Below are positions 22,836 to 60,385 of a stretch of 64,000 nucleotides of DNA, piece by piece. The first letter of the stretch is position 1. Each line of letters starts with the position of its first letter. This stretch comes from a virus, in the IMG/VR virus record IMGVR_UViG_3300033146_004974, positions 21,851 through 85,850 of that record; one strand, written 5' to 3'. Made by a program: the position numbers and the translations under genes. Below the pieces are notes generated by a model that saw nothing but the letters and a program-made list of their open reading frames with translations, did no database searches and was not told the origin of the DNA.

Positions 22836-23051
22836 ATGAAATTTTGCAAAGAATCGGAAGAAGTCAAATCGTTTGAAAATGATTTTGAAGCTTTTGTTTT
22901 ATATGAAGAATGGGGTGTTGATGATTGTTGTTTCAAATGTTGTTTTATTTATTTCGCATGTTGTTTTATTGCAGTTGATAATACGCCCGTCTTAGAGAAC
23001 CAAGTGGGACCTACACATGTAAGTTACAATTTCAGCAGAAATTGGATGTGA
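22836..23051 (+). CDS. MKFR...WQ family small protein (Cys-rich variant)
   Basis: MKFCK...VDN...FSRNWM. Confidence 0.7.
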   Translation: MKFCKESEEVKSFENDFEAFVLYEEWGVDDCCFKCCFIYFACCFIAVDNTPVLENQVGPTHVSYNFSRNWM

Positions 23052-23187: not shown

Positions 23188-23382
23188 ATGAAATTCCGTC
23201 AAGAATCAGAAGAAGTCGAATCGTTTGAAAATGATTTCGAAACTTTTGTTATATATGAAGAATGGGATATTGATGATTGTTATTTCGCATGTGGTCCTGC
23301 TGGAGTTGATAATACGCCCCACTTGGAGAATCAAGTGGGGCTTACACATGTAAGTTACAATTTCAGCAGAAATTGGATGTGA
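23188..23382 (+). CDS. MKFR...WQ family small protein
   Basis: MKFRQ...VDN...FSRNWM; close paralog of 22836. Confidence 0.7.
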   Translation: MKFRQESEEVESFENDFETFVIYEEWDIDDCYFACGPAGVDNTPHLENQVGLTHVSYNFSRNWM

Positions 23383-29464: not shown

Positions 29465-29671
29465 ATGAAATTTAAGGAGTTTTCACCAAATATTAATGCA
29501 GCTTTCACCGGATGGACGTTGTTCGAAACGATTAGAATAATGTCAAAGGAAGGTGAAGTGGTGATGAGATGCGAAAATATGGACTGGCTTTGGGAATATC
29601 AAGAGATTGATGGAATTAAGGTGCAAACCATATTTAAAATAGGGCAATATTTCTCAAGAGTTGAACAATAA
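29465..29671 (+). CDS. MKFR...WQ family small protein (isolated, divergent)
   Basis: MKFKE...MDW...FSRVEQ; CAATG start context. Confidence 0.6.
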   Translation: MKFKEFSPNINAAFTGWTLFETIRIMSKEGEVVMRCENMDWLWEYQEIDGIKVQTIFKIGQYFSRVEQ

Positions 29672-45619: not shown

Positions 45620-46489
45620 TTGATGTTATTCGAAATAGATTTGAAAGATTTTCCTTATAGAAATAGAGAAACGGTTTCTTACACTGAATTCAAAGTGTTT
45701 CAGGATTGTCAATTCAGACATTATATGTCTTTTATCAATCCTGAAACACCAATGGGAGAAAAGTTCCAAACTTTTTCTGGAATATTTGGAACAATGGTTC
45801 ATGAATATTTGAAAAAGATTGCTGTTAAGCAAAGAATGCTAAATCTTTTAAATCAAAGAAATTTAAATATTGCTTTTTATCAAAAAGAATTTAAATTCGA
45901 TTTTCTAAGGGAGCTTCGCAAAGCAAGTGTGCGCGAAGATTATGCCACAAAAAGATTGCTTAGTTCTCTTTCTGGGAAAAAGAATTACACAGAATTGAAA
46001 GAAATATTCATAAAGGCTGGGCAAAAGTTCTTGAATTATGGCCACTTTATTCTAACACAAAATTTAATTGTCGCAACGGAACTTGAATTGTACGACATGA
46101 TTCCTGATATTTCGCCAAATCTTCGTAAATTCAAGGGGGCAATTGATTTAGTCACATATGATAATGATTCCAAAAAGTTCGGAATCATTGAGTGGAAAAC
46201 TTCTTATAGAGAGGTGGAACACGATCCCCGTCAATTGTTGCTGTATAAATATTTTCTGGCAAAAGATTTGAAGCTCCCTCTTGATAGGTTCAAAACATAT
46301 TTTTGTGAATTTCGTGTCTCAACAATGGATCATAAATTTACAGAAGTTCCGTCGAATTCTTCTTATATGGAGAATGTTATGGAACCTTTGAAGAATTTTG
46401 TTCTAACTTTGAAGACTAAAAAAGTTTCGAGAAAAGTTGGGAAGAGATGTGATTTTTGCCGCTTTCAAGATCTTTGCGAGATGTTCTGA
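45620..46489 (+). CDS. PD-(D/E)XK nuclease (Cas4/AddB-like)
   Basis: SYT...CQFRHY, GTMVH, GAIDLV, IIEWKTS, QLLLY, CDFC...C. Confidence 0.85.
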   Translation: MMLFEIDLKDFPYRNRETVSYTEFKVFQDCQFRHYMSFINPETPMGEKFQTFSGIFGTMVHEYLKKIAVKQRMLNLLNQRNLNIAFYQKEFKFDFLRELRKASVREDYATKRLLSSLSGKKNYTELKEIFIKAGQKFLNYGHFILTQNLIVATELELYDMIPDISPNLRKFKGAIDLVTYDNDSKKFGIIEWKTSYREVEHDPRQLLLYKYFLAKDLKLPLDRFKTYFCEFRVSTMDHKFTEVPSNSSYMENVMEPLKNFVLTLKTKKVSRKVGKRCDFCRFQDLCEMF

Positions 46490-46701
46490 TGAAGTATAAA
46501 ATTACTTCTTTTTATATTCAAGAACAAGCGTTACGCGGGATTGGTGATCTTTTTGTAACATATGTTTTGCGAAGTGACAAACGTTGCACTTACAGCTTTC
46601 ATTTGAAACTGGTTGATAACCAATTTGAAGTTTTCAAAGTGGGGAATAGAATCAGGAAAATTTCGTCATTTTTACCAAATTTTTCAAGAGATTGGCAGTG
46701 A
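46489..46701 (+). CDS. MKFR...WQ family small protein
   Basis: MKYK...VDN...FSRDWQ. Confidence 0.7.
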   Translation: MKYKITSFYIQEQALRGIGDLFVTYVLRSDKRCTYSFHLKLVDNQFEVFKVGNRIRKISSFLPNFSRDWQ

Positions 46702-46922
46702 GGTTCCGCAACAAGTTTGAAATAACTGAAGATCTTGTAAACGATATGTGGAGATGCTCTTTTTTTACATTGGTTATCGAATGTTGGACATGTCTTCACA
46801 TGTTTGAAATAAATTCGAATATTAATGTAAGAATTGATTTATTAACATTTGAAAAATATGACAAAACCAAATCATCTTCGCTATATCCTGAATTTCATAA
46901 ATTTTTAAGGAGTTGGCAATGA
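46698..46922 (+). CDS. MKFR...WQ family small protein
   Basis: GTG start, RFRN...IDL...FLRSWQ. Confidence 0.7.
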   Translation: MRFRNKFEITEDLVNDMWRCSFFTLVIECWTCLHMFEINSNINVRIDLLTFEKYDKTKSSSLYPEFHKFLRSWQ

Positions 46923-47125
46923 AATTCAGAAACATATATCATTCAGCGACAAGTCACATTTCGTTATTCACGTGCCGCCATATTAAGTTTCACACTTCTT
47001 TGGGAAGAAAAATGATTTTTAAAGATAACACAATAGATTATCAATATGAATGGAACACTGATTTTGATGGTTCGTCAAAGAAATTTTGGTATCCATTTAG
47101 ACAATTTGACAGGGTTCATCAATAA
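46919..47125 (+). CDS. MKFR...WQ family small protein
   Basis: MKFRN...IDYQ...FDRVHQ. Confidence 0.7.
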   Translation: MKFRNIYHSATSHISLFTCRHIKFHTSLGRKMIFKDNTIDYQYEWNTDFDGSSKKFWYPFRQFDRVHQ

Positions 47126-49779: not shown

Positions 49780-49805
49780 TGAGAATTTGAAAAAGTTTCG
49801 GAATT

Positions 49806-49983: not shown

Positions 49984-51498
49984 ATGAGCGCCACAAAGCT
50001 TTCCGATTCTTTTTTTAATTCTTTTTCAGACTTCGAGAAAAAAGAAGTCTTAAAAGAGGAGTTTGACAATTACTTTTTTGAATCAACGTCGTTTCAAGAA
50101 AGTTCGTTCAAAGATTGCGAATTCGTCAATTCACAAATGGGACATTCAATTTTTGATGAATGTTCATTCAAAGATGTTTCGTTCAAAAATTGCGATCTAA
50201 CTTTCGCAATTTTTCGCAATTGTTCATTCCAAGATTGCGAATTTGAGCGTAATCAAATGAAGCAAGCGAGCTTTGAAAGATGTGAGATTTTGGCCAATTT
50301 CATTGATAATAATGTCGAAGGAATGGACATTGTTTCGTCCGTTCTGAAAGCTGCAATCTTCGAACACAAAGATTGCAGGATTCAGAATTCAGAAATTGTT
50401 GGGGACATTGATCTTGACGCTTCCAACATTTATGAATGCGTCAAAATTGACAAAGTTTCAAAACCGTTTGAAAAATATCATTCAAACGGTGTTCTTTTTT
50501 TTGGACAATTCACCGGAAAAATGGTGTACCAGAAAAGGAATATGAATTTTACTCTAGAAACAATGTCAGTCTTTGACGTTCGTTTGACAGAAAATGGCAA
50601 AAAAATGTTTGCCAAGATTCAAAAGTTTGGGAATATCGTTGAAATTTTGATCGATGTTTCCCAAGGAATCAAAAAAGATGTTCATGTCGAATTCCTATCC
50701 TTTTTGCAAGGGAATGTGCAATATGCCTTTTCCAAAAGAATTAAAAAAACCTTGCCTGAGTTCTTTGAAAAAGGTGTTCAATATCGCAAACCAAGGAATG
50801 AAGGGTTAAAAACTTGGAAAGATCACAAATTCCACAAGATTGCAATGCAATTCATTTTGAACGAGATAGGAACAGAATTTCTCGACTTTCCAAAAAAAGA
50901 ACAAGATAAAACTTTAGCTCTGGTTATCAGAGCATATGAGGGTTACCTTGCTCAGGAAAAAGCAAAGAAAGTCCGTGATTTTGCTTTGACGATTGAACTT
51001 GGGAAAAAAGAGGATCTTTCCAAGTTTCAAAAAATGGATTATCCATACACAAGCCAAATGCTAGAATTTTTGGCAATCAATCGAGCAATAGCCGCTGGTT
51101 TTGTTGATCTTGGCGAAGCAAAACAGGCTTTTAGATACGCTATGAATTCCCAGAATTCTTTTTCCAAAACTTTGTCCCTTGTTATGAATAAAATTCAACA
51201 TGTTATGCCTTTTGTTAAAGGTATGACACCATGGGGCAAAAAGATGGAAAATGCTTATATTGTTCGAGAAGTCGCAACAAAAAAAGAGGAGATTGCAATA
51301 ACTTTCCCGATCAATATCAACAAGGCGAGTTCAGAAGTGCTTGCAAAACTTCCCGGAATCAAAGAAGGTTTGGCAAAAAAGATTGTCAACGAAAGAATGA
51401 AGGGGAATTTTGTGAAGGTCGAAGATCTACGCTTTGTGAAGGGAATTTCAAGAGCGAAGGCTAAATCTTTGCAGGCGAAGGGGTTTGCGACGGTTTGA
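49984..51498 (+). CDS. pentapeptide-repeat protein with C-terminal ComEA-like helix-hairpin-helix domain
   Basis: SFQES SFKDC EFVNS...FRNC SFQDC repeats; ININKASSEVLAKLPGIKEGLAKKIV...DLRFVKGI. Confidence 0.8.
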   Translation: MSATKLSDSFFNSFSDFEKKEVLKEEFDNYFFESTSFQESSFKDCEFVNSQMGHSIFDECSFKDVSFKNCDLTFAIFRNCSFQDCEFERNQMKQASFERCEILANFIDNNVEGMDIVSSVLKAAIFEHKDCRIQNSEIVGDIDLDASNIYECVKIDKVSKPFEKYHSNGVLFFGQFTGKMVYQKRNMNFTLETMSVFDVRLTENGKKMFAKIQKFGNIVEILIDVSQGIKKDVHVEFLSFLQGNVQYAFSKRIKKTLPEFFEKGVQYRKPRNEGLKTWKDHKFHKIAMQFILNEIGTEFLDFPKKEQDKTLALVIRAYEGYLAQEKAKKVRDFALTIELGKKEDLSKFQKMDYPYTSQMLEFLAINRAIAAGFVDLGEAKQAFRYAMNSQNSFSKTLSLVMNKIQHVMPFVKGMTPWGKKMENAYIVREVATKKEEIAITFPININKASSEVLAKLPGIKEGLAKKIVNERMKGNFVKVEDLRFVKGISRAKAKSLQAKGFATV

Positions 51499-51525
51499 GC
51501 TAAACAAAACAATTTGCAGAACTTC

Positions 51526-51551
51526 AAGGCACCTTCGGTGCCTTTTCTTTT
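51526..51551 (+). terminator. intrinsic terminator
   Basis: AAGGCACC-TTC-GGTGCCTT followed by TTCTTTT. Confidence 0.8.
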
Positions 51552-51571
51552 GTCTAAATCTAGGAAAAAAA

Positions 51572-51772
51572 ATGTTGGACATTCAATCAACCGCTTTGTA
51601 TCTTGATTCCATCTCAAAGATCCCGCTGGAAAAGAGAGAGGAAGCATATCAGATTTTGTTAAAAATCCCTGGATTCAATGCGCGATTGTTGATTGCAATC
51701 AATGAGTACATTAAGATCAGAAACTTGAGGGGGAACTTGAAAGACTTGGTGATGCCAGAAACAGAACAGTGA
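51572..51772 (+). CDS. hypothetical protein leading the array operon
   Basis: AGGA RBS; GTGA overlap into the first array member. Confidence 0.55.
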   Translation: MLDIQSTALYLDSISKIPLEKREEAYQILLKIPGFNARLLIAINEYIKIRNLRGNLKDLVMPETEQ

Positions 51773-51966
51773 GATACCGAAGATATGTTTCTTTGACAAG
51801 CAATCCTCTAATTTCATCAGCAGAATTTGAAACGTCAACCAAAGCAATTTTGGTTAACAAATTGAGTGATCCGACAAAAAAATGGATTGCAATTGATTAC
51901 CAACCTGAGATTTACTGGGGAAAGAGAGCTATTGAACAACTTTCTTTTGATAAGGCTTGGCAATGA
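51769..51966 (+). CDS. MKFR...WQ family small protein
   Basis: MRYR...IDYQ...FDKAWQ. Confidence 0.75.
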   Translation: MRYRRYVSLTSNPLISSAEFETSTKAILVNKLSDPTKKWIAIDYQPEIYWGKRAIEQLSFDKAWQ

Positions 51967-52184
51967 GGTCCAAAGATTTTAAAAAATGGAACAAGTTCAA
52001 TAATTATAGAATTCAGACAACTGAATATCCTGGGAGCATTGGTGAGCATTTCAAAAGCACAATCGTGCATGGCGAAAAACCATTTGATTTTATTGATTTC
52101 CAGCCAGATATTGTAAACTATTATTCAACATTTTACAGGGCAGTTAAAGAAGGAAAAATTTATTGTTCAAGAGAGTGGCAATGA
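51963..52184 (+). CDS. MKFR...WQ family small protein
   Basis: MRSK...IDFQ...SREWQ. Confidence 0.75.
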   Translation: MRSKDFKKWNKFNNYRIQTTEYPGSIGEHFKSTIVHGEKPFDFIDFQPDIVNYYSTFYRAVKEGKIYCSREWQ

Positions 52185-52411
52185 TGCGTTTTAGAAAAGA
52201 GTCGGAAAAGATTGATAACTTGATCAATCGACATTATTTCTCTTTTAATCATCAAGCTCAATTTGAAGTTTTGAGTGCAACCCTTATTCGTGGTGCAAAG
52301 CCCAACTCCAATGAGAGAAAAAATTTTATAATATTTGTGGAATTAAGCACGATGGATTATATCCAACTTCTTTATGGCAAAACAGGCCCCTTCTTAAGGA
52401 AGCGGCAGTGA
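52181..52411 (+). CDS. MKFR...WQ family small protein
   Basis: MMRFRK...MDY...FLRKRQ. Confidence 0.75.
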   Translation: MMRFRKESEKIDNLINRHYFSFNHQAQFEVLSATLIRGAKPNSNERKNFIIFVELSTMDYIQLLYGKTGPFLRKRQ

Positions 52412-52617
52412 AATTTAGAACAACAATGAGCAGAGTTTCTTGCCCTTTTGAGCTAATTTTTGTCACAAGAGTTCTTGCTAACAGCAAAATAAAATTCTCC
52501 ATATTTTCAGGAATGTGGGAAATTGATTTGATAAATTTTTATACGCAAAAAGGTGAAGAGATAGAAAAAATGAATTTGGCAGATTTATGGCGTTATGAAT
52601 GGGAGGTTTTCCAATGA
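52408..52617 (+). CDS. MKFR...WQ family small protein
   Basis: MKFR...IDL...WEVFQ. Confidence 0.7.
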   Translation: MKFRTTMSRVSCPFELIFVTRVLANSKIKFSIFSGMWEIDLINFYTQKGEEIEKMNLADLWRYEWEVFQ

Positions 52618-52796
52618 AGTTTAGAAACAAATATTGCTTACACGAAAAATCTTTAAAAAAAGATTACTTATTTATAAGTGCTCAAATTTATCAAGATGGA
52701 CCAGCAAATTCATTCATTAATTTTCAACAATGGTGGACTCTTGAAAGAAAGGTTGGATTGTTTTTAGACAAAATTGGCGACAGAAATTGGCAATGA
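52614..52796 (+). CDS. MKFR...WQ family small protein
   Basis: MKFRN...INFQ...DRNWQ. Confidence 0.75.
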   Translation: MKFRNKYCLHEKSLKKDYLFISAQIYQDGPANSFINFQQWWTLERKVGLFLDKIGDRNWQ

Positions 52797-52817
52797 TTGT
52801 TGGAAAGAAGGCGGACC

Positions 52818-53048
52818 ATGAAATCAAGAAGCCAGTTTAAAAACACATCTGAAAGATTCGTTAAAGACAGCATGTTTGAAGCGATGGTTGTTAAAAAATA
52901 TGAGTGGAGAAGCACAACAGGAAAATCAAAAATGCTTGTTTCATTTGGCTGGGGATATGTTGATGAACTTGAATTTGTTAAGTTCAATGGAACAAAACTC
53001 TCAAATTTAAACAATTTCTGCTACAAACATTCAAGAGAATGGCAATGA
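52818..53048 (+). CDS. MKFR...WQ family small protein
   Basis: MKSR...VDE...SREWQ. Confidence 0.75.
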   Translation: MKSRSQFKNTSERFVKDSMFEAMVVKKYEWRSTTGKSKMLVSFGWGYVDELEFVKFNGTKLSNLNNFCYKHSREWQ

Positions 53049-53266
53049 TTTTCAGGAATTTGTCTCAAAATGTTTATGCTTATAGGCCATATGATCCAAC
53101 CATCATTCAACATAGAATATTCGAACATCCATATTCTTTTAAAACTTGTGAATTCACTCATGGATTCTGGACTGATCATCAAGTTTTGGTAAATTTCGGT
53201 GACATTCCAACAAATTTCTTTGGAGAAAATATTTCAAAACGATATTTTTCAGGAGCTTGGCAATGA
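53045..53266 (+). CDS. MKFR...WQ family small protein
   Basis: MIFRN...TDHQ...FSGAWQ. Confidence 0.75.
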   Translation: MIFRNLSQNVYAYRPYDPTIIQHRIFEHPYSFKTCEFTHGFWTDHQVLVNFGDIPTNFFGENISKRYFSGAWQ

Positions 53267-53751
53267 GAAGATTTTTATTTTTAGATTTTGATGGAGTTTT
53301 GAATTCTATTCATTGGTTTAAAACCAGGAGAAGATTTGATCCCATGTTGAATGGAGTTTATTCCGAAGAATTATCGGAAGATTATGATTTAGATCCGTTA
53401 TGCGTAGGATTCCTTAACAAAATTGTAACAAACATTGAAAATCTTGAAATTGTCATCTCGTCGGCGTGGAGAATTTATAAATCCGTTTCTTATTTGGATT
53501 CAATATTGATGAGAAACGGATTTGTTGGAAAAGTATATTCCAAAACTCCTTTTTTACGACATGAAGGGAGAGAAGAGGAAATTTTCTCTTGGTTGCAAAA
53601 AATTGATGATGAGTATTCATTTGTCATTTTGGATGATGAATATATCATGGAACATCCGAGATTTGTTCAAACAAATGTGGAAACTGGTTTGACTGAAGAA
53701 AATGTTCAACAAGTTATCAAACTTTTTCAAGAGGCAGACCATGAATGTTAA
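53263..53751 (+). CDS. HAD-superfamily phosphatase (Swiss-Army-Knife RNA-repair HAD type)
   Basis: FLFLDFDGVLN, IVISSAWR, REEEI, FVILDD, GLT. Confidence 0.85.
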   Translation: MRRFLFLDFDGVLNSIHWFKTRRRFDPMLNGVYSEELSEDYDLDPLCVGFLNKIVTNIENLEIVISSAWRIYKSVSYLDSILMRNGFVGKVYSKTPFLRHEGREEEIFSWLQKIDDEYSFVILDDEYIMEHPRFVQTNVETGLTEENVQQVIKLFQEADHEC

Positions 53752-54013
53752 AAAGAATCTGCAATATTACAAAAAAGATTGCCCCATTTCTCAATTGCCA
53801 AAAGAAATTCGCCATTTTTGGAGCATGGTCAGAAAAAGACAGAAGATTGAAGTTTCAAGAGAATTGGCAAGAGAACTTCGTTTGGCACATTATGTCACTC
53901 ATTATGTGGTTGACAAAAGAGTTTACAAATTCTATCCTCAAACAAAAGAGATTGGCGAATTTCTTTGGCCATACATTGGGGAACATTGCACATTTATTGA
54001 AAATGAAGTTTAG
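53741..54013 (+). CDS. hypothetical protein (not a family member)
   Basis: GAGG RBS; ORF track. Confidence 0.55.
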   Translation: MNVKKNLQYYKKDCPISQLPKEIRHFWSMVRKRQKIEVSRELARELRLAHYVTHYVVDKRVYKFYPQTKEIGEFLWPYIGEHCTFIENEV

Positions 54014-54209
54014 AAAAGATAATGAAGAATTCATGGAAAAAGCATTAGGGATATATAAGATGAGTTTTGCTAATGTTGTGTTGATTGAAAATGAAGATTG
54101 TTCATTCTTCTTTGCGACCTCTAACATGTTTTCAATCGATCACCTACCAGAGATCTTTCTTAATGAAAGAAATGTTTGGCCAAACGAATTCACAAGATCT
54201 TGGCAATAA
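54003..54209 (+). CDS. MKFR...WQ family small protein
   Basis: MKFRK...IDHL...FTRSWQ. Confidence 0.75.
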   Translation: MKFRKDNEEFMEKALGIYKMSFANVVLIENEDCSFFFATSNMFSIDHLPEIFLNERNVWPNEFTRSWQ

Positions 54210-54220
54210 AATGGAAGATC

Positions 54221-54427
54221 ATGAGATATAGAAACATTTTTAAAATGATACAATACCGAGTCAACAAACAATATGGAAGATTTTGGCATTATACAATCGA
54301 TCCCGTTAATACTGCTGAGCCAGCTCATGTTGATGTTGATGATATTGAAATCGATTGTGTTATGACATATGATACTGATTCGGAATATTTTATGTATCTC
54401 TTTCCAATTGACAGATCTTGGCAATGA
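54221..54427 (+). CDS. MKFR...WQ family small protein
   Basis: MRYRN...IDC...IDRSWQ. Confidence 0.75.
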   Translation: MRYRNIFKMIQYRVNKQYGRFWHYTIDPVNTAEPAHVDVDDIEIDCVMTYDTDSEYFMYLFPIDRSWQ

Positions 54428-54624
54428 AGTTTAGAAAATCTTTTGAGATGGTAAGAACATATTGTTTCATTGAATTTGAAACAAGAATTATTATAACAGT
54501 ACCTCACATTGCGCCCAATAGAATGGAAATAAAAGTCACATTTCATAAGACACTGGATTATCTAAAACGTATTGAATTTGGTTATGGAGTAAGAAGAAGT
54601 AATTTTTCTCATGAGGCTCAATGA
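54424..54624 (+). CDS. MKFR...WQ family small protein
   Basis: MKFRK...LDYL...FSHEAQ. Confidence 0.75.
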   Translation: MKFRKSFEMVRTYCFIEFETRIIITVPHIAPNRMEIKVTFHKTLDYLKRIEFGYGVRRSNFSHEAQ

Positions 54625-54815
54625 AGTTCCGTCAAGATATAACAACAACAAAATATAAAAAATTGGGCAACAAATATGCTATACTCTTTCACATCATTAT
54701 ACATTATGGCGAAAGTCATTTGGGAACTGTCCTTAAAGATATCGATTTTGTAACCTCTCACGCAAATGCAGGCAAATATAGAATTACCTCAACTTCTTCA
54801 AAAAATTGGCAATAG
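54621..54815 (+). CDS. MKFR...WQ family small protein
   Basis: MKFRQ...IDF...SKNWQ. Confidence 0.75.
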   Translation: MKFRQDITTTKYKKLGNKYAILFHIIIHYGESHLGTVLKDIDFVTSHANAGKYRITSTSSKNWQ

Positions 54816-54848
54816 AAAATCATGATCTATTGGACAGCGGAATGGGCC

Positions 54849-55055
54849 ATGAAATTTAAGAACATTTTTAAAATAATACAATACCATATTAGCAGGCAAG
54901 ATGGAAGATTCTGGCATTACACAATAGATTTTAGTGATGTTCTTGGGCCTGCTCATGTTGATGTTGATGACGCAGAAATAGATTTCTTAATGACGTATGA
55001 CATCGATTTGGAATACTATATTTACCTCTTACCATTTGATCAGAATTTGCAATAA
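54849..55055 (+). CDS. MKFR...WQ family small protein (paralog of 54221)
   Basis: MKFKN...IDFL...FDQNLQ. Confidence 0.75.
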   Translation: MKFKNIFKIIQYHISRQDGRFWHYTIDFSDVLGPAHVDVDDAEIDFLMTYDIDLEYYIYLLPFDQNLQ

Positions 55056-55063
55056 GAGAATAT

Positions 55064-55108
55064 ATGAAGTTTCAAAGAGATGAGGTTAAGAAAAGGGATT
55101 GGCAATGA
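55064..55108 (+). pseudogene. minimal ('empty') family member, 14 aa MKFQRDEVKKRDWQ
   Basis: ATG AAG TTT CAA AGA GAT GAG GTT AAG AAA AGG GAT TGG CAA TGA. Confidence 0.65.
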
Positions 55109-55314
55109 TGTTTAGAGATCTTTTAGAGAATACTTCAGAAACTTATAATTGTGGTTGGGAAATATTCTCAACAACTTGCCCAGTATTTCTAAGAAAGAAT
55201 CCCGAACGAACTTATTTAAATGTTGATTATTTAGTTGAATACGAAGCATGGGAACATCTTACTCATAGGATTGTTTATAGCTACAAACAAAATTTTGTAC
55301 GAAGTTGGCAATGA
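55105..55314 (+). CDS. MKFR...WQ family small protein
   Basis: MMFRD...VDYL...FVRSWQ. Confidence 0.75.
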   Translation: MMFRDLLENTSETYNCGWEIFSTTCPVFLRKNPERTYLNVDYLVEYEAWEHLTHRIVYSYKQNFVRSWQ

Positions 55315-55535
55315 ATTTTCAAAAAATTGGATGCGTTGTGAAATTTAGAAAAGAAATGGGTAAATATATTCAAGAAGTTCGTTCAATCGTATTTGAAAGT
55401 TACTCTCTTTCTTTTAGCAAATACGATTTTCTAATTGGACCTACTTTTGGTATTACAATGGATTATCAAAAAATTCATTTTAAATCAGGCTTTAAAAGTG
55501 GAACGTATCCTGGCTTTAAAAGAGAATGGCAATGA
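55311..55535 (+). CDS. MKFR...WQ family small protein (alternative GTG start 55338)
   Basis: MNFQ..VKFRK...MDYQ...FKREWQ. Confidence 0.75.
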   Translation: MNFQKIGCVVKFRKEMGKYIQEVRSIVFESYSLSFSKYDFLIGPTFGITMDYQKIHFKSGFKSGTYPGFKREWQ

Positions 55536-55726
55536 AATTCAGAAAAGAGTTGAAAGGCAATTTTAGCCTTTATTCGACAACATTATTCCACACAATCATA
55601 CCAATTTCTTATGACAAAACAAGAGTGGCAGCATGGAGCTTTTCTGATATTGATTATCAATATGGGTTAAATTGTTATGGAGAATTTATTGAACAGATAT
55701 TTGCTTTTTCAAGAGATCGGCAATGA
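55532..55726 (+). CDS. MKFR...WQ family small protein
   Basis: MKFRK...IDYQ...FSRDRQ. Confidence 0.75.
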   Translation: MKFRKELKGNFSLYSTTLFHTIIPISYDKTRVAAWSFSDIDYQYGLNCYGEFIEQIFAFSRDRQ

Positions 55727-55938
55727 AATTTAGAAAAGAGGTTGAAAATGAAGCACAACTGAAAACAACCCCTTTTCTATTTGTTCCTTTTGCAATTATG
55801 TTTCATGAATACCATATTAAAGAAGAGAACAGGGGCTTGCTTTGCTATAGAAGAGTTATTGATCACCTTTGGGCTTTCAATGAAAGCTACCCATTATTCA
55901 ATCAACGAGAATTCTTTTTTGGCAAAAATTGGATGTGA
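55723..55938 (+). CDS. MKFR...WQ family small protein
   Basis: MKFRK...IDHL...FGKNWM. Confidence 0.75.
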   Translation: MKFRKEVENEAQLKTTPFLFVPFAIMFHEYHIKEENRGLLCYRRVIDHLWAFNESYPLFNQREFFFGKNWM

Positions 55939-55948
55939 TGAGGACAAA

Positions 55949-56239
55949 ATGAAAGAATATGAACTGAGGGGAGATTTAAGGGGATATTATGGATACCACT
56001 CTTTTCAAAACTATCCGAACACGGAAGAATCCGGCTGGTGGTTGGGGTTATCCTTTCCAGTCCTAGAGGACCGGGGAGGAGAGCAGTTTTTACACACTCC
56101 AAGACAATTAGAAGAACCCTATTTAATAGTGGGAGATGCTGTTAGGGGGGAAGTAGAGATTAGAGGCAAGAAAAGACAAGTCCGCACCATGACCATATGG
56201 TGTAACAAAAGGGAAATAATCATTGCAAAAATTCTCTAG
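55949..56239 (+). CDS. hypothetical protein (not a family member)
   Basis: GAGGA RBS; MKEYELRGDLRG... Confidence 0.6.
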   Translation: MKEYELRGDLRGYYGYHSFQNYPNTEESGWWLGLSFPVLEDRGGEQFLHTPRQLEEPYLIVGDAVRGEVEIRGKKRQVRTMTIWCNKREIIIAKIL

Positions 56240-56283
56240 TCTCTGCCTTTTTCTTCTTAAGTTAACACACTTTAGGGAATACA

Positions 56284-56496
56284 ATGAAATTTCGTGACAT
56301 TTTGCCTCTTCAAATTCCAAATCCAATGCTGAATTCTTTCTTAACATTTGGAATCAAACTGCCTTTTGTTTTCGGTCATTATTGTTATGATTTGGGGTTC
56401 ATGTACAATCAGGTTGATATTCTTCCAGAACCATATCCTGAAACCTCTGGGGCAAAACCTTTCCGCGCCTTGAGATTTGAAAAAAGTTGGCAATGA
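56284..56496 (+). CDS. MKFR...WQ family small protein
   Basis: MKFRD...VDIL...FEKSWQ. Confidence 0.75.
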   Translation: MKFRDILPLQIPNPMLNSFLTFGIKLPFVFGHYCYDLGFMYNQVDILPEPYPETSGAKPFRALRFEKSWQ

Positions 56497-56696
56497 AATT
56501 TCGTCAAAAATTTGCTAATAAGAAGCCATTTTTGCTTGCACAAATAGTGACATATGCAATTTTCACATACAATGTTAAATTTTACAGATTACTAGGATCT
56601 GGGATTAGTATCAACCCAGTCTTAAAAACGGTTGACTATTTGAATATTGAACAAATGTTTTCAAGAAAAACTCTCTTTTCAAAAGATTGGCAATGA
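56493..56696 (+). CDS. MKFR...WQ family small protein
   Basis: MKFRQ...VDYL...FSKDWQ. Confidence 0.75.
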   Translation: MKFRQKFANKKPFLLAQIVTYAIFTYNVKFYRLLGSGISINPVLKTVDYLNIEQMFSRKTLFSKDWQ

Positions 56697-56719
56697 TTCA
56701 TGCCGACGAAGGAGGAAAC

Positions 56720-56920
56720 ATGAAATTTGTTTCTAAATTTGATGAAATCAATTTTTCCTGTTACGATAATTTTTTGATATATACAATTTCTCCATATTGT
56801 GACGATTTATGTTGCTCATTGGGAACCTTCATTGAAGTGAGACCAATTCTAAAGAATGTTGATCATATCATTCTAGATTATGTTGTGAGGCCAACACCAT
56901 TTGTGAAAGAATTTATGTGA
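56720..56920 (+). CDS. MKFR...WQ family small protein
   Basis: AAGGAGG RBS; MKFV...VDHI...FVKEFM. Confidence 0.7.
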   Translation: MKFVSKFDEINFSCYDNFLIYTISPYCDDLCCSLGTFIEVRPILKNVDHIILDYVVRPTPFVKEFM

Positions 56921-56928
56921 GATGCAAA

Positions 56929-57120
56929 ATGAAATTCAGAGAAACTGAAAAAGATTCTGCAAAATTGAGCACAACTTTTTTTGACAGTTTGGTTGTTGCT
57001 TTCGCATTCCGAAGTGGACTCTATTTCGGACTTAAATATTTTGATTCGCTCCCATATGTTATAGGGGTGAAACCAGCATTTAAGAGGGAAAAACATAATT
57101 TTAACAGAGGTTGGCAATGA
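56929..57120 (+). CDS. MKFR...WQ family small protein
   Basis: MKFRE...FDSL...FNRGWQ. Confidence 0.75.
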   Translation: MKFRETEKDSAKLSTTFFDSLVVAFAFRSGLYFGLKYFDSLPYVIGVKPAFKREKHNFNRGWQ

Positions 57121-57137
57121 AATTTCGTGGCATTTAG
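57117..57137 (+). pseudogene. truncated family stub MKFRGI*
   Basis: TGGCA ATG AAA TTT CGT GGC ATT TAG. Confidence 0.55.
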
Positions 57138-57169
57138 TGCTTTAAAAAAAGTAATATAATGGAACACTA

Positions 57170-57364
57170 ATGGAATATCGTAATAAATTAAAAAACTCGA
57201 TATGGAAGTGGTCATGGGAAATATTTGTAACAGGTTCTATTTCCCGCAATTCCGAACATAAAACTATTGTTCAAAGATATTCAATTGATTTATTGCCTAA
57301 AACTTCTGAAGACGAAATGTATTTACCATTTGTTGTCCTACGTTTTTCAGGCAAGTGGCAATAA
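57170..57364 (+). CDS. MKFR...WQ family small protein
   Basis: MEYRN...IDLL...FSGKWQ. Confidence 0.75.
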   Translation: MEYRNKLKNSIWKWSWEIFVTGSISRNSEHKTIVQRYSIDLLPKTSEDEMYLPFVVLRFSGKWQ

Positions 57365-57418
57365 GATACAAAATGGATGGGGGGATATTCATTCCTTCGG
57401 TCTTTTAAAGAGGCATTG

Positions 57419-57616
57419 ATGCGTTTCACAAAAGAAATGGGAATAAATTACGAACACGCCAACATTCTTTTCGAGCACTGGGTGATGACATTTAAATTGA
57501 AGTTCCACAATCCAACTTTGCTTGAAACAATTGATTATCAATCAATAATTTACGATAAGGCAGATTATTTGAAAAGTTTATCATTGTTCGAGTCTTTTTC
57601 AATAAATTGGCAATGA
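57419..57616 (+). CDS. MKFR...WQ family small protein
   Basis: MRFTK...IDYQ...FSINWQ. Confidence 0.75.
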   Translation: MRFTKEMGINYEHANILFEHWVMTFKLKFHNPTLLETIDYQSIIYDKADYLKSLSLFESFSINWQ

Positions 57617-57638
57617 ATCCAACAATTTTGCTTCATTC

Positions 57639-57756
57639 TTTTGAGCCAGGCTTTTGCCTGGCTTCAAAACGTTTGGGCCAAATGTTCGCCATCATCATCA
57701 TTGCATCATCTTTGCGAACAATTGCCAACTTTTTTGCACGGATTACCGTGCAAAAG
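57639..57756. terminator. two hairpins between convergent transcription units
   Basis: TTTTGAGCCAGGC-TTTT-GCCTGGCTTCAAAA and TTTTGCACGG-ATTA-CCGTGCAAAA. Confidence 0.7.
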
Positions 57757-60385
57757 AATGAAGAATTCTGATTCTGATTCGGCTTTCATTCAACATTCCA
57801 TTTTGTTTCAGAAACTTTCTCGCTTGTCCTTGGGATTGCCAATCAAGTTCTCCATTTTTGAGAAGCAGTGCGACAATTTCTGGATTTCCTTTTTTCAATG
57901 CTTTCCGCATTGTTCTTTCCTTGGGCCTGAGCCAACCTTTTTGTGCAAGAAATTGAAGAATTTCTATATCATCGATATAAAGATTTGTTAAATAATCAAA
58001 TGAAATATTTTTTTGTCGATAATATTTTTCAAGTTTTTCTGCCAGATCAAAAAGGTGGTTTTCCAATAGTTTTTGTAGAATAATATCGACAAAATGATAA
58101 CTAATTTTTGTTATCTTTTTATAACCACCTTTTTGGAAGAAATCGAGTGCGGTCTGATTTTTGTAAGTAAGTGCCCAATAAAGCAAATGATCCATTTCAT
58201 TTTCTGGGAGATATTTGAAAGCAAGAGGGATTTTCTTGCTGTTCTGCAACATCAACAATCTCAAATAATGTTCCCAACCTTCGTGCTGATCAAAATTTTT
58301 CAGGACTTTGATAAATGGAAAATCATCTGCCTCGTCATCAAGAATTGCTCTTATGACTCTTGAATCGCCAGCTCTTTCAGTATTGAACAAAAATTCAAAA
58401 GCTTCTTTATCTCCATAATTAATTGCTGTTATGAGGAAAATCAACGCATCATTTTCAAATTTTGGGGATTTGTTCGAGAAGTATGCCAACAATTTATTGA
58501 TTGGGTAAGAATGTTGAAACATGATTGCTGATAGAATGGCATTTTTATTGTAAGATGTTTTTTCATCTTTGAATAAGAAATTGATGACTTCCTCATTGTC
58601 ATATTCCACAGCATTTTTCAATACTATTCCTCTAGGATCTTTGCTTAGATTATTGGACAAAAGATGATTGATAACTTCCTCATTTTCTTCTTCCACAGCA
58701 ATTGCCAAAATTTTTCCTTCAGGATCTTTGCTCAGATTATTGGACAAAAGATGATTGATAACTTTTTCATTTTCATATTCCATGGCATTTTCCAAAGCTC
58801 TTCCTTCAGGATCTTTGCTCAGATTATTGGATAGAAGATGATTAATAACTTTTTCATTTTCTTCTATCACGGCATTTTTTAAGGCTCTTCCTTCGGGATC
58901 TTTGCTCAGATTATTGGACAAAAGATGATTGATAACTTTTTCATTTTCATATTTTACAGCAAGTCTCAAAGCTGTTCCTCCAGGATCTTTGCTTAGATTA
59001 TTGGATAGGAGATGATTGATAACTTTTTCATTTTTATATCCCACAGCATTTGCCAATTGCAATCCGAACTCATCAGAGAGAGTTGGTTGTTGTAAAAGAA
59101 AATCAACACCTTCATGATATTTTTTTCGCATAGCATATGTTAGACTCTCCGAATCTTCAATGTTAGCACCATGATTCAAAAGAAGATCTGCAATCTTCAA
59201 TTGTCTGCTTTCGATTGCTGCTCCCAATGGTTGATTGCTGTTGAAATTGATATCAGCACCGTCTTCAACAAGTTCTTTCACTTTTTCAAAATTGAGTTCT
59301 TTGATTGCGTCAATGAGCAATTCGCCACGTTTTTCAACTTCTTTTCGGACATCTTTTTGGTCCAAATCTGGAGTTCCGAACGTGAAACGATTTTCAATCC
59401 CTCCAAAATCGTTTTCGATTCCAACATTTTGAACAAGATCGTGCAATGAAAGGTCTTCATAAGCTCCACCAACAAGTTTGATCTCATTTTTGTCAGCAGT
59501 TTTCAACCATTCAAGTCCCTCTTGTTGATTGGTTATTAGAAACTTTGTCAATTCTCTTTCTGTTAATGAGCGCAAATTATGGTCATCACTATAAAACTTT
59601 GACCATGTGTAAACATTGTGTTTAAAATCTTTTGAAGCAAGTCTTCTGACTCTTGTCATCCCCTGGGTTTTGATCCCGTTAAAACCACGTTTTTTGTCAT
59701 AAAGAATCTCATCATTCGCAAAAGATTCATTGTTAAAGTTTTCTTGAATCCACTGTGCATCCTCGTCTGAGATATTGTAGACCATGAATCCATTGCTTCC
59801 AACTGCTTCTGAAATTGCACAATGGAAGAAAGCTTGTCCTTCCGTGTGACAGTTTGTTACAACATGGTCTGACATTTTCATGATGTCGATCGGATGTCTG
59901 GTCATTAAAAGATATCCACTTCCATCACGGTTTGTCTTCCAAGTTTGATAAGCTTTGCTATCCATGAAACGTTTAAACCAACCATCCTTGTCCAGTTTGA
60001 ACTTTCTAAAAAACCTGTTCAAACTTATCTTTTTTATTTTTGCTTTCGCTCTCCCATTGCTTTTTCTCATTGCATATTCATTTGGTTCTTCTAGCCATTC
60101 GACAATCCCCGTTTCAAAAGTTTTGTTCTCATCAGCTCCAATTTCTTCCAATTTGTTTCTAATCCTTTTGAAAGCTTTTTTGACTTTGGGATTTAAAACA
60201 TCTCCTTCCAATTTGAAAAGTCTTCTATTGCTTGGAAGCAGTTTTGAAATGCTTTTCATTCCATATTTAAAATTGTCCGAATCTGTTACAGTCTTGAAAC
60301 TCTTATGGATGTCCAAAGCAGTTTGTGAAACTTCATTCAGCCTGCTTCGTTTTGGACGAAGCAGCTTCTTCATTTTTATTTTCAT
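57743..60385 (-). CDS. large ankyrin-repeat protein (880 aa)
   Basis: VKELVEDGADIN..PLGAAI..IADLLLNHGANI; five near-identical 29-aa repeats; the only long minus-strand gene. Confidence 0.85.
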   Translation of the reverse strand: MKIKMKKLLRPKRSRLNEVSQTALDIHKSFKTVTDSDNFKYGMKSISKLLPSNRRLFKLEGDVLNPKVKKAFKRIRNKLEEIGADENKTFETGIVEWLEEPNEYAMRKSNGRAKAKIKKISLNRFFRKFKLDKDGWFKRFMDSKAYQTWKTNRDGSGYLLMTRHPIDIMKMSDHVVTNCHTEGQAFFHCAISEAVGSNGFMVYNISDEDAQWIQENFNNESFANDEILYDKKRGFNGIKTQGMTRVRRLASKDFKHNVYTWSKFYSDDHNLRSLTERELTKFLITNQQEGLEWLKTADKNEIKLVGGAYEDLSLHDLVQNVGIENDFGGIENRFTFGTPDLDQKDVRKEVEKRGELLIDAIKELNFEKVKELVEDGADINFNSNQPLGAAIESRQLKIADLLLNHGANIEDSESLTYAMRKKYHEGVDFLLQQPTLSDEFGLQLANAVGYKNEKVINHLLSNNLSKDPGGTALRLAVKYENEKVINHLLSNNLSKDPEGRALKNAVIEENEKVINHLLSNNLSKDPEGRALENAMEYENEKVINHLLSNNLSKDPEGKILAIAVEEENEEVINHLLSNNLSKDPRGIVLKNAVEYDNEEVINFLFKDEKTSYNKNAILSAIMFQHSYPINKLLAYFSNKSPKFENDALIFLITAINYGDKEAFEFLFNTERAGDSRVIRAILDDEADDFPFIKVLKNFDQHEGWEHYLRLLMLQNSKKIPLAFKYLPENEMDHLLYWALTYKNQTALDFFQKGGYKKITKISYHFVDIILQKLLENHLFDLAEKLEKYYRQKNISFDYLTNLYIDDIEILQFLAQKGWLRPKERTMRKALKKGNPEIVALLLKNGELDWQSQGQARKFLKQNGMLNESRIRIRILHSFAR
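58580..59045 (-). repeat. 87-bp coding tandem repeat, ~5.3 copies
   Basis: NEKVINHLLSNNLSKDP.G..L..A unit; GGATCTTTGCT.AGATTATTGGA recurs on the + strand. Confidence 0.9.

What the first reader, a model, noticed from the sequence alone, without database searches (positions are those of the whole stretch)
51769..57616. Array of 22 small hypervariable proteins sharing a three-anchor scaffold (MKFR ... [IV]D ... FxRxWQ)
Seen: 22 ORFs of about 60-77 aa lie head to tail. Nearly all start M-[KR]-[FY]-[RK], carry a hydrophobic-Asp-(Y/F/H/L) motif roughly 17-30 residues from the end, and finish (F)-x-[RK]-x-W-Q. The two segments between these anchors are mostly unalignable by eye, yet length is tightly constrained. 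The anchors use synonymous codons (R = AGA/CGT/CGC, K = AAA/AAG, F = TTT/TTC), which points to selection on the protein. I do not recognise the family. Inference: a phage repertoire of small binders with a constant frame and variable face, such as an anti-defence or host-takeover inhibitor library. Alternatively they are interchangeable specificity subunits that dock on one partner through their conserved termini.
Basis: partly seen in the sequence, partly recalled or inferred. Interest (0 to 1): 0.92.

Follow-up and report, generated by a model that had tools for sequence, protein, structure and literature searches.

The report
Tandem small-protein family in large phage
An uncultured large phage carries 28 copies, 22 of them in one tightly packed row, of an undescribed 60-76-residue protein whose two ends stay constant while the middle varies; arrays of this general kind recur in big phages, and what this one does is still untested.

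Summary
Window 51769-57616 (+ strand) has 22 head-to-tail genes of 60-76 aa from one family. The same 85.8-kb phage contig has 6 more copies elsewhere. Anchors are M-[KR]-[FY]-[RK] (15 of 22), a Phe near residue 20, hydrophobic-Asp (19 of 22) and W-Q at the end (15 of 22). The genes look real: the annotated frame scores best among six frames in 26 of 26, and two young pairs have dN/dS of 0.22 and 0.45.

Codon choice shows amino-acid selection on the N-terminal anchor. The C-terminal anchor also carries the next gene's ribosome-binding site and its ATGA stop/start.

No Pfam, PHROGs, NCBIfam, PADLOC or PDB match was found. A profile search of 1.84 billion proteins returned only this contig's own copies. 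DNA scans of the junction found one other phage contig with at least four or five members and no orthologues. Structure models are weak, with only a central beta-hairpin moderately confident.

Best reading (about 0.4): a tandemly expanded, translationally coupled repertoire of small soluble proteins, probably for host interaction or counter-defence. Function is untested.

This scan has noted analogous arrays of other families on other phage DNA, so this is a new member of a known kind.

The parts
51769..51966 (+). member 1 of the array, 65 aa, GTG start overlapping the stop of the upstream 66-aa ORF (GTGA); ends KAWQ
51963..52184 (+). member 2, 73 aa, MRSK... ends REWQ
52184..52411 (+). member 3, 75 aa, MRFRKE... 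ends RKRQ (Trp lost)
52408..52617 (+). member 4, 69 aa, GTG start, (M)KFRTT... ends EVFQ
52614..52796 (+). member 5, 60 aa, MKFRNK... ends RNWQ; no Asp anchor
52818..53048 (+). member 6, 76 aa, MKSRSQ... ends REWQ; own ribosome site, 21-nt gap
53045..53266 (+). member 7, 73 aa, MIFRNL... ends GAWQ
53263..53751 (+). not a member: HAD_SAK_2 phosphatase-like gene set into the array, start coupled by ATGA to member 7
   Evidence: Pfam PF18143 E 2.8e-25; nearest homologues 38-42% identical
53741..54013 (+). not a member: 90-aa ORF of no family, 11-nt overlaps on both sides
54003..54209 (+). member 8, 68 aa, MKFRKD... ends RSWQ then TAA; structure model 1
54221..54427 (+). member 9, 68 aa, MRYRNI... 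ends RSWQ; young paralogue of 54849 (60% identity, dN/dS 0.22)
54424..54624 (+). member 10, 66 aa, MKFRKS... ends HEAQ
54621..54815 (+). member 11, 64 aa, MKFRQD... ends KNWQ then TAG; structure model 2
54849..55055 (+). member 12, 68 aa, MKFKNI... ends QNLQ; paralogue of 54221
55064..55108 (+). 14-aa mini-ORF MKFQRDEVKKRDWQ: the two end motifs without an interior; a collapsed member
55108..55314 (+). member 13, 68 aa, MFRDLL... ends RSWQ
55338..55535 (+). member 14, 65 aa from GTG (VKFRKE), or 74 aa from the junction ATG at 55311; ends REWQ
55532..55726 (+). member 15, 64 aa, MKFRKE... ends RDRQ
55723..55938 (+). member 16, 71 aa, MKFRKE... ends KNWM
55949..56239 (+). not a member: 96-aa ORF (MKEYELRG...) of no family
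56284..56496 (+). member 17, 70 aa, MKFRDI... ends KSWQ; own ribosome site
56493..56696 (+). member 18, 67 aa, MKFRQK... ends KDWQ; similar to its neighbour 56720
56720..56920 (+). member 19, 66 aa, MKFVSK... ends KEFM; AGGAGG ribosome site
56929..57120 (+). member 20, 63 aa, MKFRET... ends RGWQ
57117..57137 (+). 6-aa stub MKFRGI-stop after a full junction: truncated member
57170..57364 (+). member 21, 64 aa, MEYRNK... ends GKWQ then TAA
57419..57616 (+). member 22, 65 aa, MRFTKE... ends INWQ; last of the array. The ATG in its junction opens only a 52-aa frame that runs into the 3' end of the convergent 880-aa gene
46489..46701 (+). satellite member, 70 aa, MKYKIT... ends RDWQ; directly behind a PD-(D/E)XK nuclease gene
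46698..46922 (+). satellite member, 74 aa, GTG start, (M)RFRNK... ends RSWQ
46919..47125 (+). satellite member, 68 aa, MKFRNI..TIDYQ.. ends RVHQ
29465..29671 (+). solitary member, 68 aa, MKFKEF..NMDWL.. ends FSRVEQ
22836..23051 (+). member, 71 aa, MKFCKE... ends SRNWM, with a Cys-rich insert; upstream of a radical-SAM gene pair
23188..23382 (+). member, 64 aa, MKFRQE... ends SRNWM; 72% identical to 22836 (dN/dS 0.45)
51572..51772 (+). 66-aa ORF of no family that opens the operon. It starts 28 nt after a terminator-like hairpin (51526-51544)
57743..60385 (-). convergent 880-aa protein: N-terminal domain of about 330 aa of no family, then ankyrin repeats. Its N-terminal domain is the only other protein shared with the second family-bearing contig

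Best explanation
This is a lineage-restricted family of small soluble proteins of about 67 aa. It has been expanded by tandem duplication to 28 copies in a large phage of a Gram-positive-type host.

Shown: the genes are real, and they share four short anchors (MKFR, a Phe near residue 20, hydrophobic-Asp, FxRxWQ) around very divergent interiors. They sit in one co-directional, very tightly packed operon. In that operon the last codons of one gene carry the ribosome site, and an ATGA stop/start, of the next.

Inferred: the roughly 30-nt junction is held constant both by selection on the two protein ends and by the need for termination-reinitiation. It also gives a stretch of homology at which unequal exchange adds, deletes and collapses copies.

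Inferred with less certainty: the proteins are made together with the replication and counter-defence genes around them. They would act as a diversified set of binders against different host targets (host takeover or anti-defence). The constant ends would serve as a common handle, and the variable hairpin and loops would give each copy its specificity.
For: Coding:
- The interior of 26 of 26 members scores best in the annotated frame among six frames, under a codon model trained on 27 long genes of the phage.
- dN/dS is 0.45 and 0.22 in the two young pairs.
- 20 of 330 + strand ORFs carry the end motif, against 0 of 574 on the - strand.

One family:
- Alignments A1 and A3 show the anchors.
- In leave-one-out full-length profiles, 15 of 28 members were recovered at E<1e-3 (Z=1474), and 23 of 28 beat all 100 shuffles.
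- With both ends cut off, 10 of 26 interiors were still reached by at most 4 of 100 shuffles.

Selection on protein ends:
- Codons at K2, F3, R4, F-6 and Q-1 follow genome usage.
- WQ is kept at the three ends that stop with TAA or TAG, where no start overlaps.

Coupling:
- Of 27 junctions, 12 are 4-nt overlaps, 2 are 1-nt and 2 are 11-nt. The largest gap is 54 nt.
- AGA or AGG is used at Arg -4 in 13 of 14, and TCA at Ser -5 in 9 of 12.

Birth and death:
- There is a 14-aa ends-only ORF and a 6-aa stub.
- There is a frameshifted copy in the second contig.
- 3 of the 7 BLASTP-similar pairs (7 of 325 pairs at E<1e-3) are immediate neighbours, hypergeometric p 0.009.

Old and diversifying:
- A second phage contig (IMGVR_UViG_3300033146_005369) has at least four or five members with the same anchors and junction.
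- None of them is closer to a window member than BLASTP E 2.6e-4.
- The rest of the two contigs shares one protein, at 37% identity.

Diverse surfaces:
- pI ranges from 4.1 to 10.1 and net charge from -11 to +8. There are no hydrophobic segments.

Context:
- The array is on the same strand as the replication genes.
- Neighbours include an ArdC-N/zincin protein, a PD-(D/E)XK nuclease, a pentapeptide-repeat/HhH protein, a DNA ligase, a tRNA nucleotidyltransferase and a HAD_SAK_2 gene inside the array.
Against: Nothing here shows function, timing or even translation.
- No sequencing run could be listed, so there are no expression data.
- No convincing promoter was found ahead of the array. A terminator-like hairpin sits 28 nt before the operon's first ORF.
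- The neighbours are only guilt by association.
- Both structure models are poor (pLDDT 67 and 58, pTM 0.33). The ends are not modelled as a packed handle.
- Fold searches found nothing.
- The two young pairs show purifying selection, not positive selection.
- No close relative of the phage exists in the collections, so gain and loss of copies at the junction could not be observed directly.
- Part of the C-terminal conservation is a nucleotide constraint.
Confidence: 0.4

Rival explanations
1. Packaged, ejected proteins. The constant ends would be capsid-targeting or processing signals. The variable bodies would be injected with the DNA, as with the T-even internal proteins, which share only a short targeting sequence and include the 76-residue anti-restriction protein IPI*.
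For: The anatomy is similar: small size, a short constant N-terminal motif often followed by Lys/Glu (MKFRKE in 6 of 26 aligned) and very diverse bodies. [quoted passage not shown]
Against: The array lies in and reads with the replication block, not with head genes. A constant C-terminus and an internal Asp anchor are not features of the T4 signal. No prohead protease or head gene is on this 42%-complete contig, so nothing could be tested.
Confidence: 0.15
2. Junction-driven gene nursery. The constancy would be mainly a nucleic-acid matter: a termination-reinitiation and recombination cassette. The interiors would be loosely constrained filler with no common protein function.
For: The junction holds stop, start and ribosome site together. 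TGGCAATGA occurs 16 times against 1.07 expected. AGA/AGG and TCA are over-used at -4 and -5. There is an ends-only 14-aa ORF. A junction-like string sits at the end of the unrelated HAD gene, read in another frame (family D9). 16 of 26 interiors are not distinguishable from shuffles.
Against: Arg at position 4 is CGT/CGC/CGA in 7 of 19, and Phe and Lys codons follow genome usage. The N-terminal motif is therefore kept as amino acids. Members with their own ribosome site and no upstream junction still start MKF (52614, 56284, 56720, 56929, 22836, 23188). Internal Phe and Asp anchors are at or above 90%. All interiors keep the coding signature. dN/dS is below 0.5.
Confidence: 0.15
3. Interchangeable subunits that dock by their constant ends on one constant phage partner. 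The partner could be the undescribed N-terminal domain of the neighbouring 880-aa ankyrin protein. The system would then be a combinatorial adaptor or specificity system.
For: Translational coupling suits subunits made together. The N-terminal ~330 aa of the 880-aa protein is the only other protein shared by the two family-bearing contigs. It is 37-39% identical, with invariant His/Cys/Glu/Asp-rich blocks, and in the window it abuts the array.
Against: The co-occurrence rests on two contig fragments. In the second contig the homologue lies about 16 kb from the visible members. No interaction was tested.
Confidence: 0.1
4. Substrates of the phage's radical-SAM enzymes. They would be precursor-like proteins with constant recognition ends and variable cores, comparable to many diverse precursors served by one maturase.
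For: Two members (22836, 23188), one with a seven-Cys insert, lie directly upstream of two radical-SAM genes and an M50-like membrane peptidase fragment. This lead came from earlier notes e1-6134562 and e1-6134563. Reading the printed sequences by eye, I recognise G-x4-C, SPASM/twitch-like C-terminal motifs in both enzymes. That recognition is from recall and no tool confirmed it.
Against: Only 2 of 28 members are next to these genes. Most members have 0-1 Cys. Radical SAM 2 has full-length homologues (about 43% identity) in 182 phage records, mostly T4-like enterobacterial phages, and the family profile found nothing outside this contig. The best homologue of radical SAM 1 sits on a 10.6-kb contig with no family member. 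No leader-binding domain was detected. At 60-76 aa with a predicted hairpin, these look like small proteins, not leader-core peptides.
Confidence: 0.07

Closest known systems
Lineage-specific tandem expansions of small proteins in large and jumbo phages, e.g. about 35 copies of a zinc ribbon in Bacillus phage G (PMC7824862, passage read)
   Same: There are many paralogues of one small protein in a single large phage of a Gram-positive host. They are restricted to a narrow lineage, and their function is unknown or only guessed.
   Different: This is a different family. It has no zinc ligands or any catalogued domain. Here the copies are chained by overlapping stop/start junctions, and both protein ends are the conserved parts.
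T-even phage internal proteins (IPI, IPII, IPIII and polymorphic Ip loci) with a conserved capsid targeting sequence (PMC3012670, passages read)
   Same: They are small and very diverse proteins that share only a short terminal motif. One of them is a 76-residue inhibitor of a host restriction enzyme.
   Different: No sequence or fold relation was found. Here the C-terminus and an internal Asp are also constant, the copy number is far higher, and the genes sit in the replication block. Packaging and cleavage are untested.
PeSL (promoter-early stem-loop) cassettes of T4-type phages (PMC2839356, abstract and outline read; PMC4122927, search listing only)
   Same: Short conserved sequences between small, non-essential, fast-turning-over genes can serve as recombination points for modular shuffling.
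   Different: PeSLs are intergenic promoter-plus-terminator units. Here there is no intergenic space at most junctions (16 of 27 overlap). The repeat is coding in both neighbours, and no promoter or stem-loop pattern recurs.
One-maturase, many-precursor peptide libraries such as the prochlorosins (PMC10783134, abstract start in a search listing only)
   Same: Many genes have constant recognition parts and hypervariable remainder.
   Different: Prochlorosin precursors have a long Nif11-type leader and a short core. Here the constant parts are 4-6 residues at each end. Only 2 of 28 copies are near candidate maturases, and those enzymes occur elsewhere without the family.
Virus multigene families that expand and contract by tandem duplication (poxvirus 'genomic accordions', African swine fever virus MGFs).
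   Same: Tandem copy-number change of host-interaction genes, and birth-and-death with remnants.
   Different: These are eukaryotic viruses with larger proteins and no overlapping-junction architecture.

Membership tests
Any catalogued protein family (Pfam-A, PHROGs v4, NCBIfam, PADLOC, PDB sequences) | Significant profile match | tested here: not met
   Of 26 members scanned, at most 1 matched any single Pfam family (best E 0.029) and at most 1 any PHROG (best E 0.0091). The 5 members scanned against NCBIfam gave 0 families. PADLOC gave 1 of 30 at E 0.053. The PDB profile search had a best E of 2.3.
Lineage-specific tandem expansion of a small phage protein | Many paralogues of one family in one phage genome, mostly adjacent | tested here: met
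   There are 28 copies on one 85.8-kb contig, 22 of them in 5.8 kb. 3 of 7 similar pairs are neighbours, p 0.009.
Lineage-specific tandem expansion of a small phage protein | Restricted phyletic range | tested here: met
   The profile against 1.84 billion representatives gave 22 hits, all from this contig. The two word-indexed searches gave 8 and 6 hits, all from this contig. Junction DNA scans found one further contig among IMG/VR hits and none among 48 metagenome and 20 genome-contig hits. Caveat: left-out members score only 3.5-23 bits. Unseen divergent members could therefore not pass a database-wide threshold.
T-even internal proteins | Short conserved N-terminal targeting sequence | tested here: inconclusive
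   A constant N-terminal motif exists (15 of 22 strict). It has no detectable relation to the T4 sequence, which was not compared letter by letter here.
T-even internal proteins | Cleavage by the prohead protease and presence in the virion | not testable with these tools
   No head or protease genes are on the contig (42% complete). There are no proteomics data.
PeSL cassettes | Sigma-70-like early promoter plus stem-loop terminator between the small genes | tested here: not met
   16 of 27 junctions overlap and the largest gap is 54 nt. The consensus scan shows no recurrent promoter or hairpin at junctions. The repeats found are the coding junctions themselves.
Radical-SAM-modified peptide precursors | Precursor genes clustered with their maturase | tested here: not met
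   2 of 28 members adjoin radical-SAM genes. The 22-gene array has none within about 25 kb.
Radical-SAM-modified peptide precursors | Maturase and precursor family co-occur in other genomes | tested here: not met
   Homologues of radical SAM 2 occur in 182 phage records, and the best homologue of radical SAM 1 occurs without family members.
Radical-SAM-modified peptide precursors | Post-translational modification of the product | not testable with these tools
   This needs mass spectrometry.

The most novel reading that the evidence does not exclude
The constant ends are a universal plug. All 28 proteins would dock, one at a time, on a single phage enzyme. The candidate is the undescribed, His/Cys/Glu-rich N-terminal domain of the neighbouring 880-aa ankyrin protein, the only other protein shared by both family-bearing contigs. 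The array would then be a phage-encoded combinatorial targeting system that points one activity at many host molecules.
Probability: 0.08. Interest if true: 0.8.

Novelty: new member of a known kind. Interest (0 to 1): 0.45.

Why it matters
Large phages repeatedly devote several percent of their DNA to rows of tiny, fast-diverging paralogues whose function nobody has measured. This case is a clean example for experiments.
- It has 28 copies with short, well-defined constant ends and an internal anchor.
- It includes natural 'ends-only' and truncated variants.
- A second, distant phage keeps the same ends with entirely different interiors.

Taken together, these make it straightforward to ask by pull-down, toxicity or defence-escape screens what the ends bind and what the interiors recognise. 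The junction also shows how one short sequence can be protein end, ribosome site, stop, start and recombination homology at once. If the function turns out to be counter-defence, the array is a ready-made library of inhibitors. If not, it is still an undescribed protein family.

Tried and rejected
Searches that gave nothing usable:
- Known-family searches: Pfam, PHROGs, NCBIfam, PADLOC and PDB sequences.
- ESM Atlas look-alikes of member 54003: best score 0.77, below any useful level.
- Fold searches with model 1. Foldseek against PDB and BFVD gave no hit at E<=0.001. VIA wide gave no chain at Z>=2. The model is too weak for these blanks to mean a new fold.
- Homodimer prediction for member 54003: no verdict. 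It is not evidence either way.
- Public sequencing runs for 51500-58000: none was listed, and no RNA holder was listed.

Looking for related phages through neighbouring genes:
- The pentapeptide/HhH protein, the 880-aa protein and the DNA polymerase gave no relative in IMG/VR.
- The HAD gene's nearest homologues are only 38-42% identical.
- A two-sequence alignment of the 880-aa N-terminal domain found only the second contig again.
- Regions around the phrog_1735 homologue in Clostridioides phage pCD1602_4 and in a faecal phage contig hold no member.
- The genome search with the family alignment on the second contig reported no match although members are there. I then fetched the contig and scanned it with hmmsearch.

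Other checks:
- Rfam on 45000-64000: no family.
- Literature searches for a described array of this kind found none. This rests on those two searches only.

Readings rejected:
- Circular or leaderless bacteriocins. Members are not hydrophobic or cationic helices. The comparison is from recall.
- Secreted proteins. No signal peptide or membrane segment was seen by eye or in GRAVY values.

Correction of my own notes: the notebook says 11 of 26 and 22 of 28 for the two leave-one-out counts. Recounting the outputs gives 10 of 26 and 23 of 28.

Full report
WHAT THE DNA IS. The window is bases 21851-85850 of an 85,850-bp IMG/VR virus record judged 42% complete. It carries a large-phage replication block: ribonucleotide reductase, a DnaE-type polymerase, DnaB-like helicase, GroEL, a tRNA nucleotidyltransferase and DNA ligase. 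Its phrog_1735 protein is 44-47% identical to proteins of Clostridioides and Bacillus phages. Start sites are preceded by purine-rich Shine-Dalgarno strings. A large phage of a Gram-positive-type host is the likely source.

THE OBSERVATION. Between 51769 and 57616, all on the + strand, I place 22 genes of 60-76 aa, median 67.5.
- 15 of 22 start M[KR][FY][RK].
- 15 of 22 end WQ, and 12 of 22 end [RK]xWQ.
- 19 of 22 have a hydrophobic-Asp motif 14-34 residues from the end. A 20th has VDI, which my expression missed.
- An alignment that adds members from a second contig shows a fourth anchor: a Phe near residue 20 in at least 90% of 30 sequences.

The stretch also holds three unrelated genes (HAD_SAK_2 at Pfam E 2.8e-25, a 90-aa ORF and a 96-aa ORF) and two remnants. 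The remnants are a 14-aa ORF made only of the two end motifs and a 6-aa stub. Six more members lie elsewhere on the contig, at 22836, 23188, 29465, 46489, 46698 and 46919, giving 28 in all.

Chance is excluded. 20 of 330 + strand ORFs of at least 40 aa carry the end motif, against 0 of 574 on the - strand. TGGCAATGA occurs 16 times against 1.07 expected, and 0 of 100 shuffles reached that.

ARE THEY GENES, AND ONE FAMILY? I trained a codon model on 27 long genes of the phage and applied it to member interiors with both ends cut off. It prefers the annotated frame among all six frames in 26 of 26. The control, 145 of 145 pieces of the training genes, is self-trained.

The two young pairs have dN/dS of 0.45 (22836/23188, 72% identity) and 0.22 (54221/54849, 60%).

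Only 7 of 325 pairs reach BLASTP E<1e-3, so the family is very divergent. Leave-one-out profiles of full-length members recover 15 of 28 at E<1e-3 (Z=1474), and 23 of 28 beat all 100 shuffles. With the first 5 and last 7 residues removed, 10 of 26 interiors are still reached by at most 4 of 100 shuffles, and 16 are not distinguishable. The interiors are thus related but nearly saturated with change.

PROTEIN OR NUCLEOTIDE CONSTRAINT AT THE ENDS? The junction consensus TTTTCAAGAGAnTGGCAATGAAATTTAGAAA holds the C-terminal FSRxWQ of one gene, its stop, the overlapping ATG and the MKFRK of the next.
- At K2, F3, R4, F-6 and Q-1 the codons follow the phage's general usage. For example, Arg4 is AGA 11, CGT 5, and CGC, CGA and AGG one each.
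- Members with their own ribosome site and no upstream junction still begin MKF.
- The three ends that stop with TAA or TAG keep WQ.

The ends are therefore selected as amino acids. There is also a nucleotide overlay. Arg -4 is AGA or AGG in 13 of 14 (AGA 11 of 14 against a genome share of 0.42, binomial p 0.012). Ser -5 is TCA in 9 of 12 against a genome share of 0.27. This gives AAGAGA or AGGAG about six bases before the next ATG.

Of 27 junctions in the operon, 12 are 4-nt overlaps, 2 are 1-nt and 2 are 11-nt. No gap exceeds 54 nt. Translational coupling is the natural reading, but it is inferred, not shown.

HOW THE ARRAY CHANGES. Three of the seven similar pairs are immediate neighbours (p 0.009), which fits tandem duplication. 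The ends-only ORF, the stub and a frameshifted copy in the second contig are remnants of loss. The only DNA repeats in the array are the 24-35-nt junctions (66-100% identical to each family's reference copy) and the one young gene pair. Unequal exchange at the junction is plausible. I could not observe it because no close relative of the phage exists in the collections.

DISTRIBUTION.
- A profile of 26 members against 1.84 billion representative proteins gave 22 hits at E<=0.001. All are this contig's own proteins.
- Two word-indexed searches of 5.8 billion clusters gave 8 and 6 hits, all from this contig.
- This blank is weak. Left-out true members score only 3.5-23 bits, far below what such a database needs.
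- Exact scans for the junction DNA found one other record, IMGVR_UViG_3300033146_005369 (77,107 bp, 42% complete). A row of members runs off the contig end there: a partial one ending SRDWQ, two full ones (80 and 64 aa, MKFRK...GWQ/NWQ), a frameshifted one, and a more distant one (MKLR...NINFQ).
- None of these is closer to a window member than BLASTP E 2.6e-4.
- The two contigs otherwise share only the N-terminal ~330 aa of the 880-aa ankyrin protein, at 37% identity.
- The other pattern hits held no member: 15 and 4 other loci in IMG/VR, 60 other loci in a double-junction scan, 48 in metagenome contigs and 20 in genome contigs.

The anchors have therefore outlived complete turnover of the interiors in two distantly related phages.

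STRUCTURE. AlphaFold2 with the paralogue alignments gave pLDDT 67 and pTM 0.33 for member 54003. That model has helix 2-15 and strands 21-29, 36-44, 51-53 and 56-58. For member 54621 it gave pLDDT 58 and pTM 0.33, with strands 21-32 and 35-45. In both, only the central hairpin reaches block means of 76-86. It begins at the Phe anchor and ends at the Asp anchor. The ends are low-confidence, so whether they pack into a core cannot be said.

The proteins are soluble, aromatic-rich (18% against 10% in long genes) and range from pI 4.1 to 10.1.

WHAT IT MOST LIKELY DOES. I commit, at about 0.4, to a co-expressed, diversified repertoire of small binders acting on host targets (takeover or counter-defence). 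The grounds are as follows:
- the birth-and-death pattern;
- complete interior turnover between phages with constant ends;
- widely varying surface charge;
- a position among replication genes and putative counter-defence genes, namely an ArdC-N/zincin protein, a pentapeptide-repeat/HhH protein, RNA-repair-type genes and a HAD_SAK_2 gene inside the array.

All of this is inference.

Rivals:
- Packaged internal proteins with terminal signals, as in T-even phages (PMC3012670): 0.15.
- A mainly nucleic-acid-level cassette: 0.15.
- Docking subunits of one phage partner: 0.10.
- Radical-SAM substrates: 0.07.

The radical-SAM idea came from earlier notes on 22836-26312. I tested it. The two enzymes are real radical-SAM proteins. 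Enzyme 2 has full-length homologues at about 43% identity in 182 phage records that lack the family. The best homologue of enzyme 1 sits on a contig without members. Only 2 of 28 members are adjacent.

COMPARISON AND NOVELTY. The family itself is undescribed, but the kind is known.
- Large phages carry lineage-specific expansions of small proteins, for example about 35 zinc-ribbon copies in Bacillus phage G (PMC7824862).
- Short conserved sequences between small accessory genes drive modular shuffling in T4-type phages (PeSLs; PMC2839356).
- Earlier notes of this scan describe analogous arrays of other families on other phage genomes. Some have the same 'end of one gene is the ribosome site and start of the next' junction. 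These are unchecked AI notes, and none shares sequence with this family.

I therefore class this as a new member of a known kind, of moderate interest. It is a well-defined, experimentally convenient case rather than a surprise.

Noticed in passing
window 57743-60385 (-) and L025:17926-19968 (-): The 880-aa protein has an N-terminal domain of about 330 aa of no known family ahead of its ankyrin repeats. It has invariant blocks such as RHPxDI..MSD, CHxEG and CAISEAxGSNGF. It is the only protein besides the small family shared by the two family-bearing contigs (37-39% identity). PHROGs and PDB gave nothing. Atlas look-alikes are unnamed viral clusters, scoring 0.89.
   Followed up: partly
window 53722-53754: The 3' end of the HAD_SAK_2 gene carries a junction-like string (CTTTTTCAAGAGGCAGACCATGA), read in a different frame from the family's FSR. 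It sits just before the start of the next ORF. It may be a relic of insertion at a junction, or a shared initiation signal.
   Followed up: no
window 22836-26312: Two family members precede two radical-SAM genes, an M50-like membrane fragment and a Cys-rich protein. Radical SAM 2 (24755-25777) is conserved at about 43% identity in 182 phage records, mostly T4-like Klebsiella, Cronobacter and Enterobacter phages. Its substrate is unlikely to be this family.
   Followed up: partly
window 62000-64000: The last 2 kb of the contig is GC-richer (0.455 against about 0.35). It is full of simple amino-acid-repeat frames on both strands (VASSS, EEAT, PLLPL), unlike the rest of the phage. This may be an assembly join or foreign DNA at the contig end.
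   Followed up: no
L026:16285-16470 (-), i.e. contig IMGVR_UViG_3300033146_005369 about 76285-76470: One member of the second phage is split. After a perfect junction it reads MKFKNV-stop, and the body continues in another frame behind a run of A. This is a frameshift, a sequencing error or a slippery site.
   Followed up: no
window 51526-51544: A GC-rich hairpin with a T-tract follows the pentapeptide-repeat/HhH gene, 28 nt before the first ORF of the array operon. No clear promoter lies between them. The array may therefore be read through a leaky terminator or from an unrecognised phage promoter.
   Followed up: no
window 44771-45598 and 49984-51498: An ArdC-N plus zincin (MPTase-PolyVal) protein and a pentapeptide-repeat protein with a C-terminal helix-hairpin-helix flank the satellite and main arrays. 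Both are candidate counter-defence or DNA-mimic functions.
   Followed up: no
window 23049-23192 and 23380-23524: The roughly 135-nt spacers after members 22836 and 23188 are duplicates of each other, including the last 25 nt before the next start. The duplication unit was therefore gene plus spacer, unlike the overlap-joined main array.
   Followed up: partly
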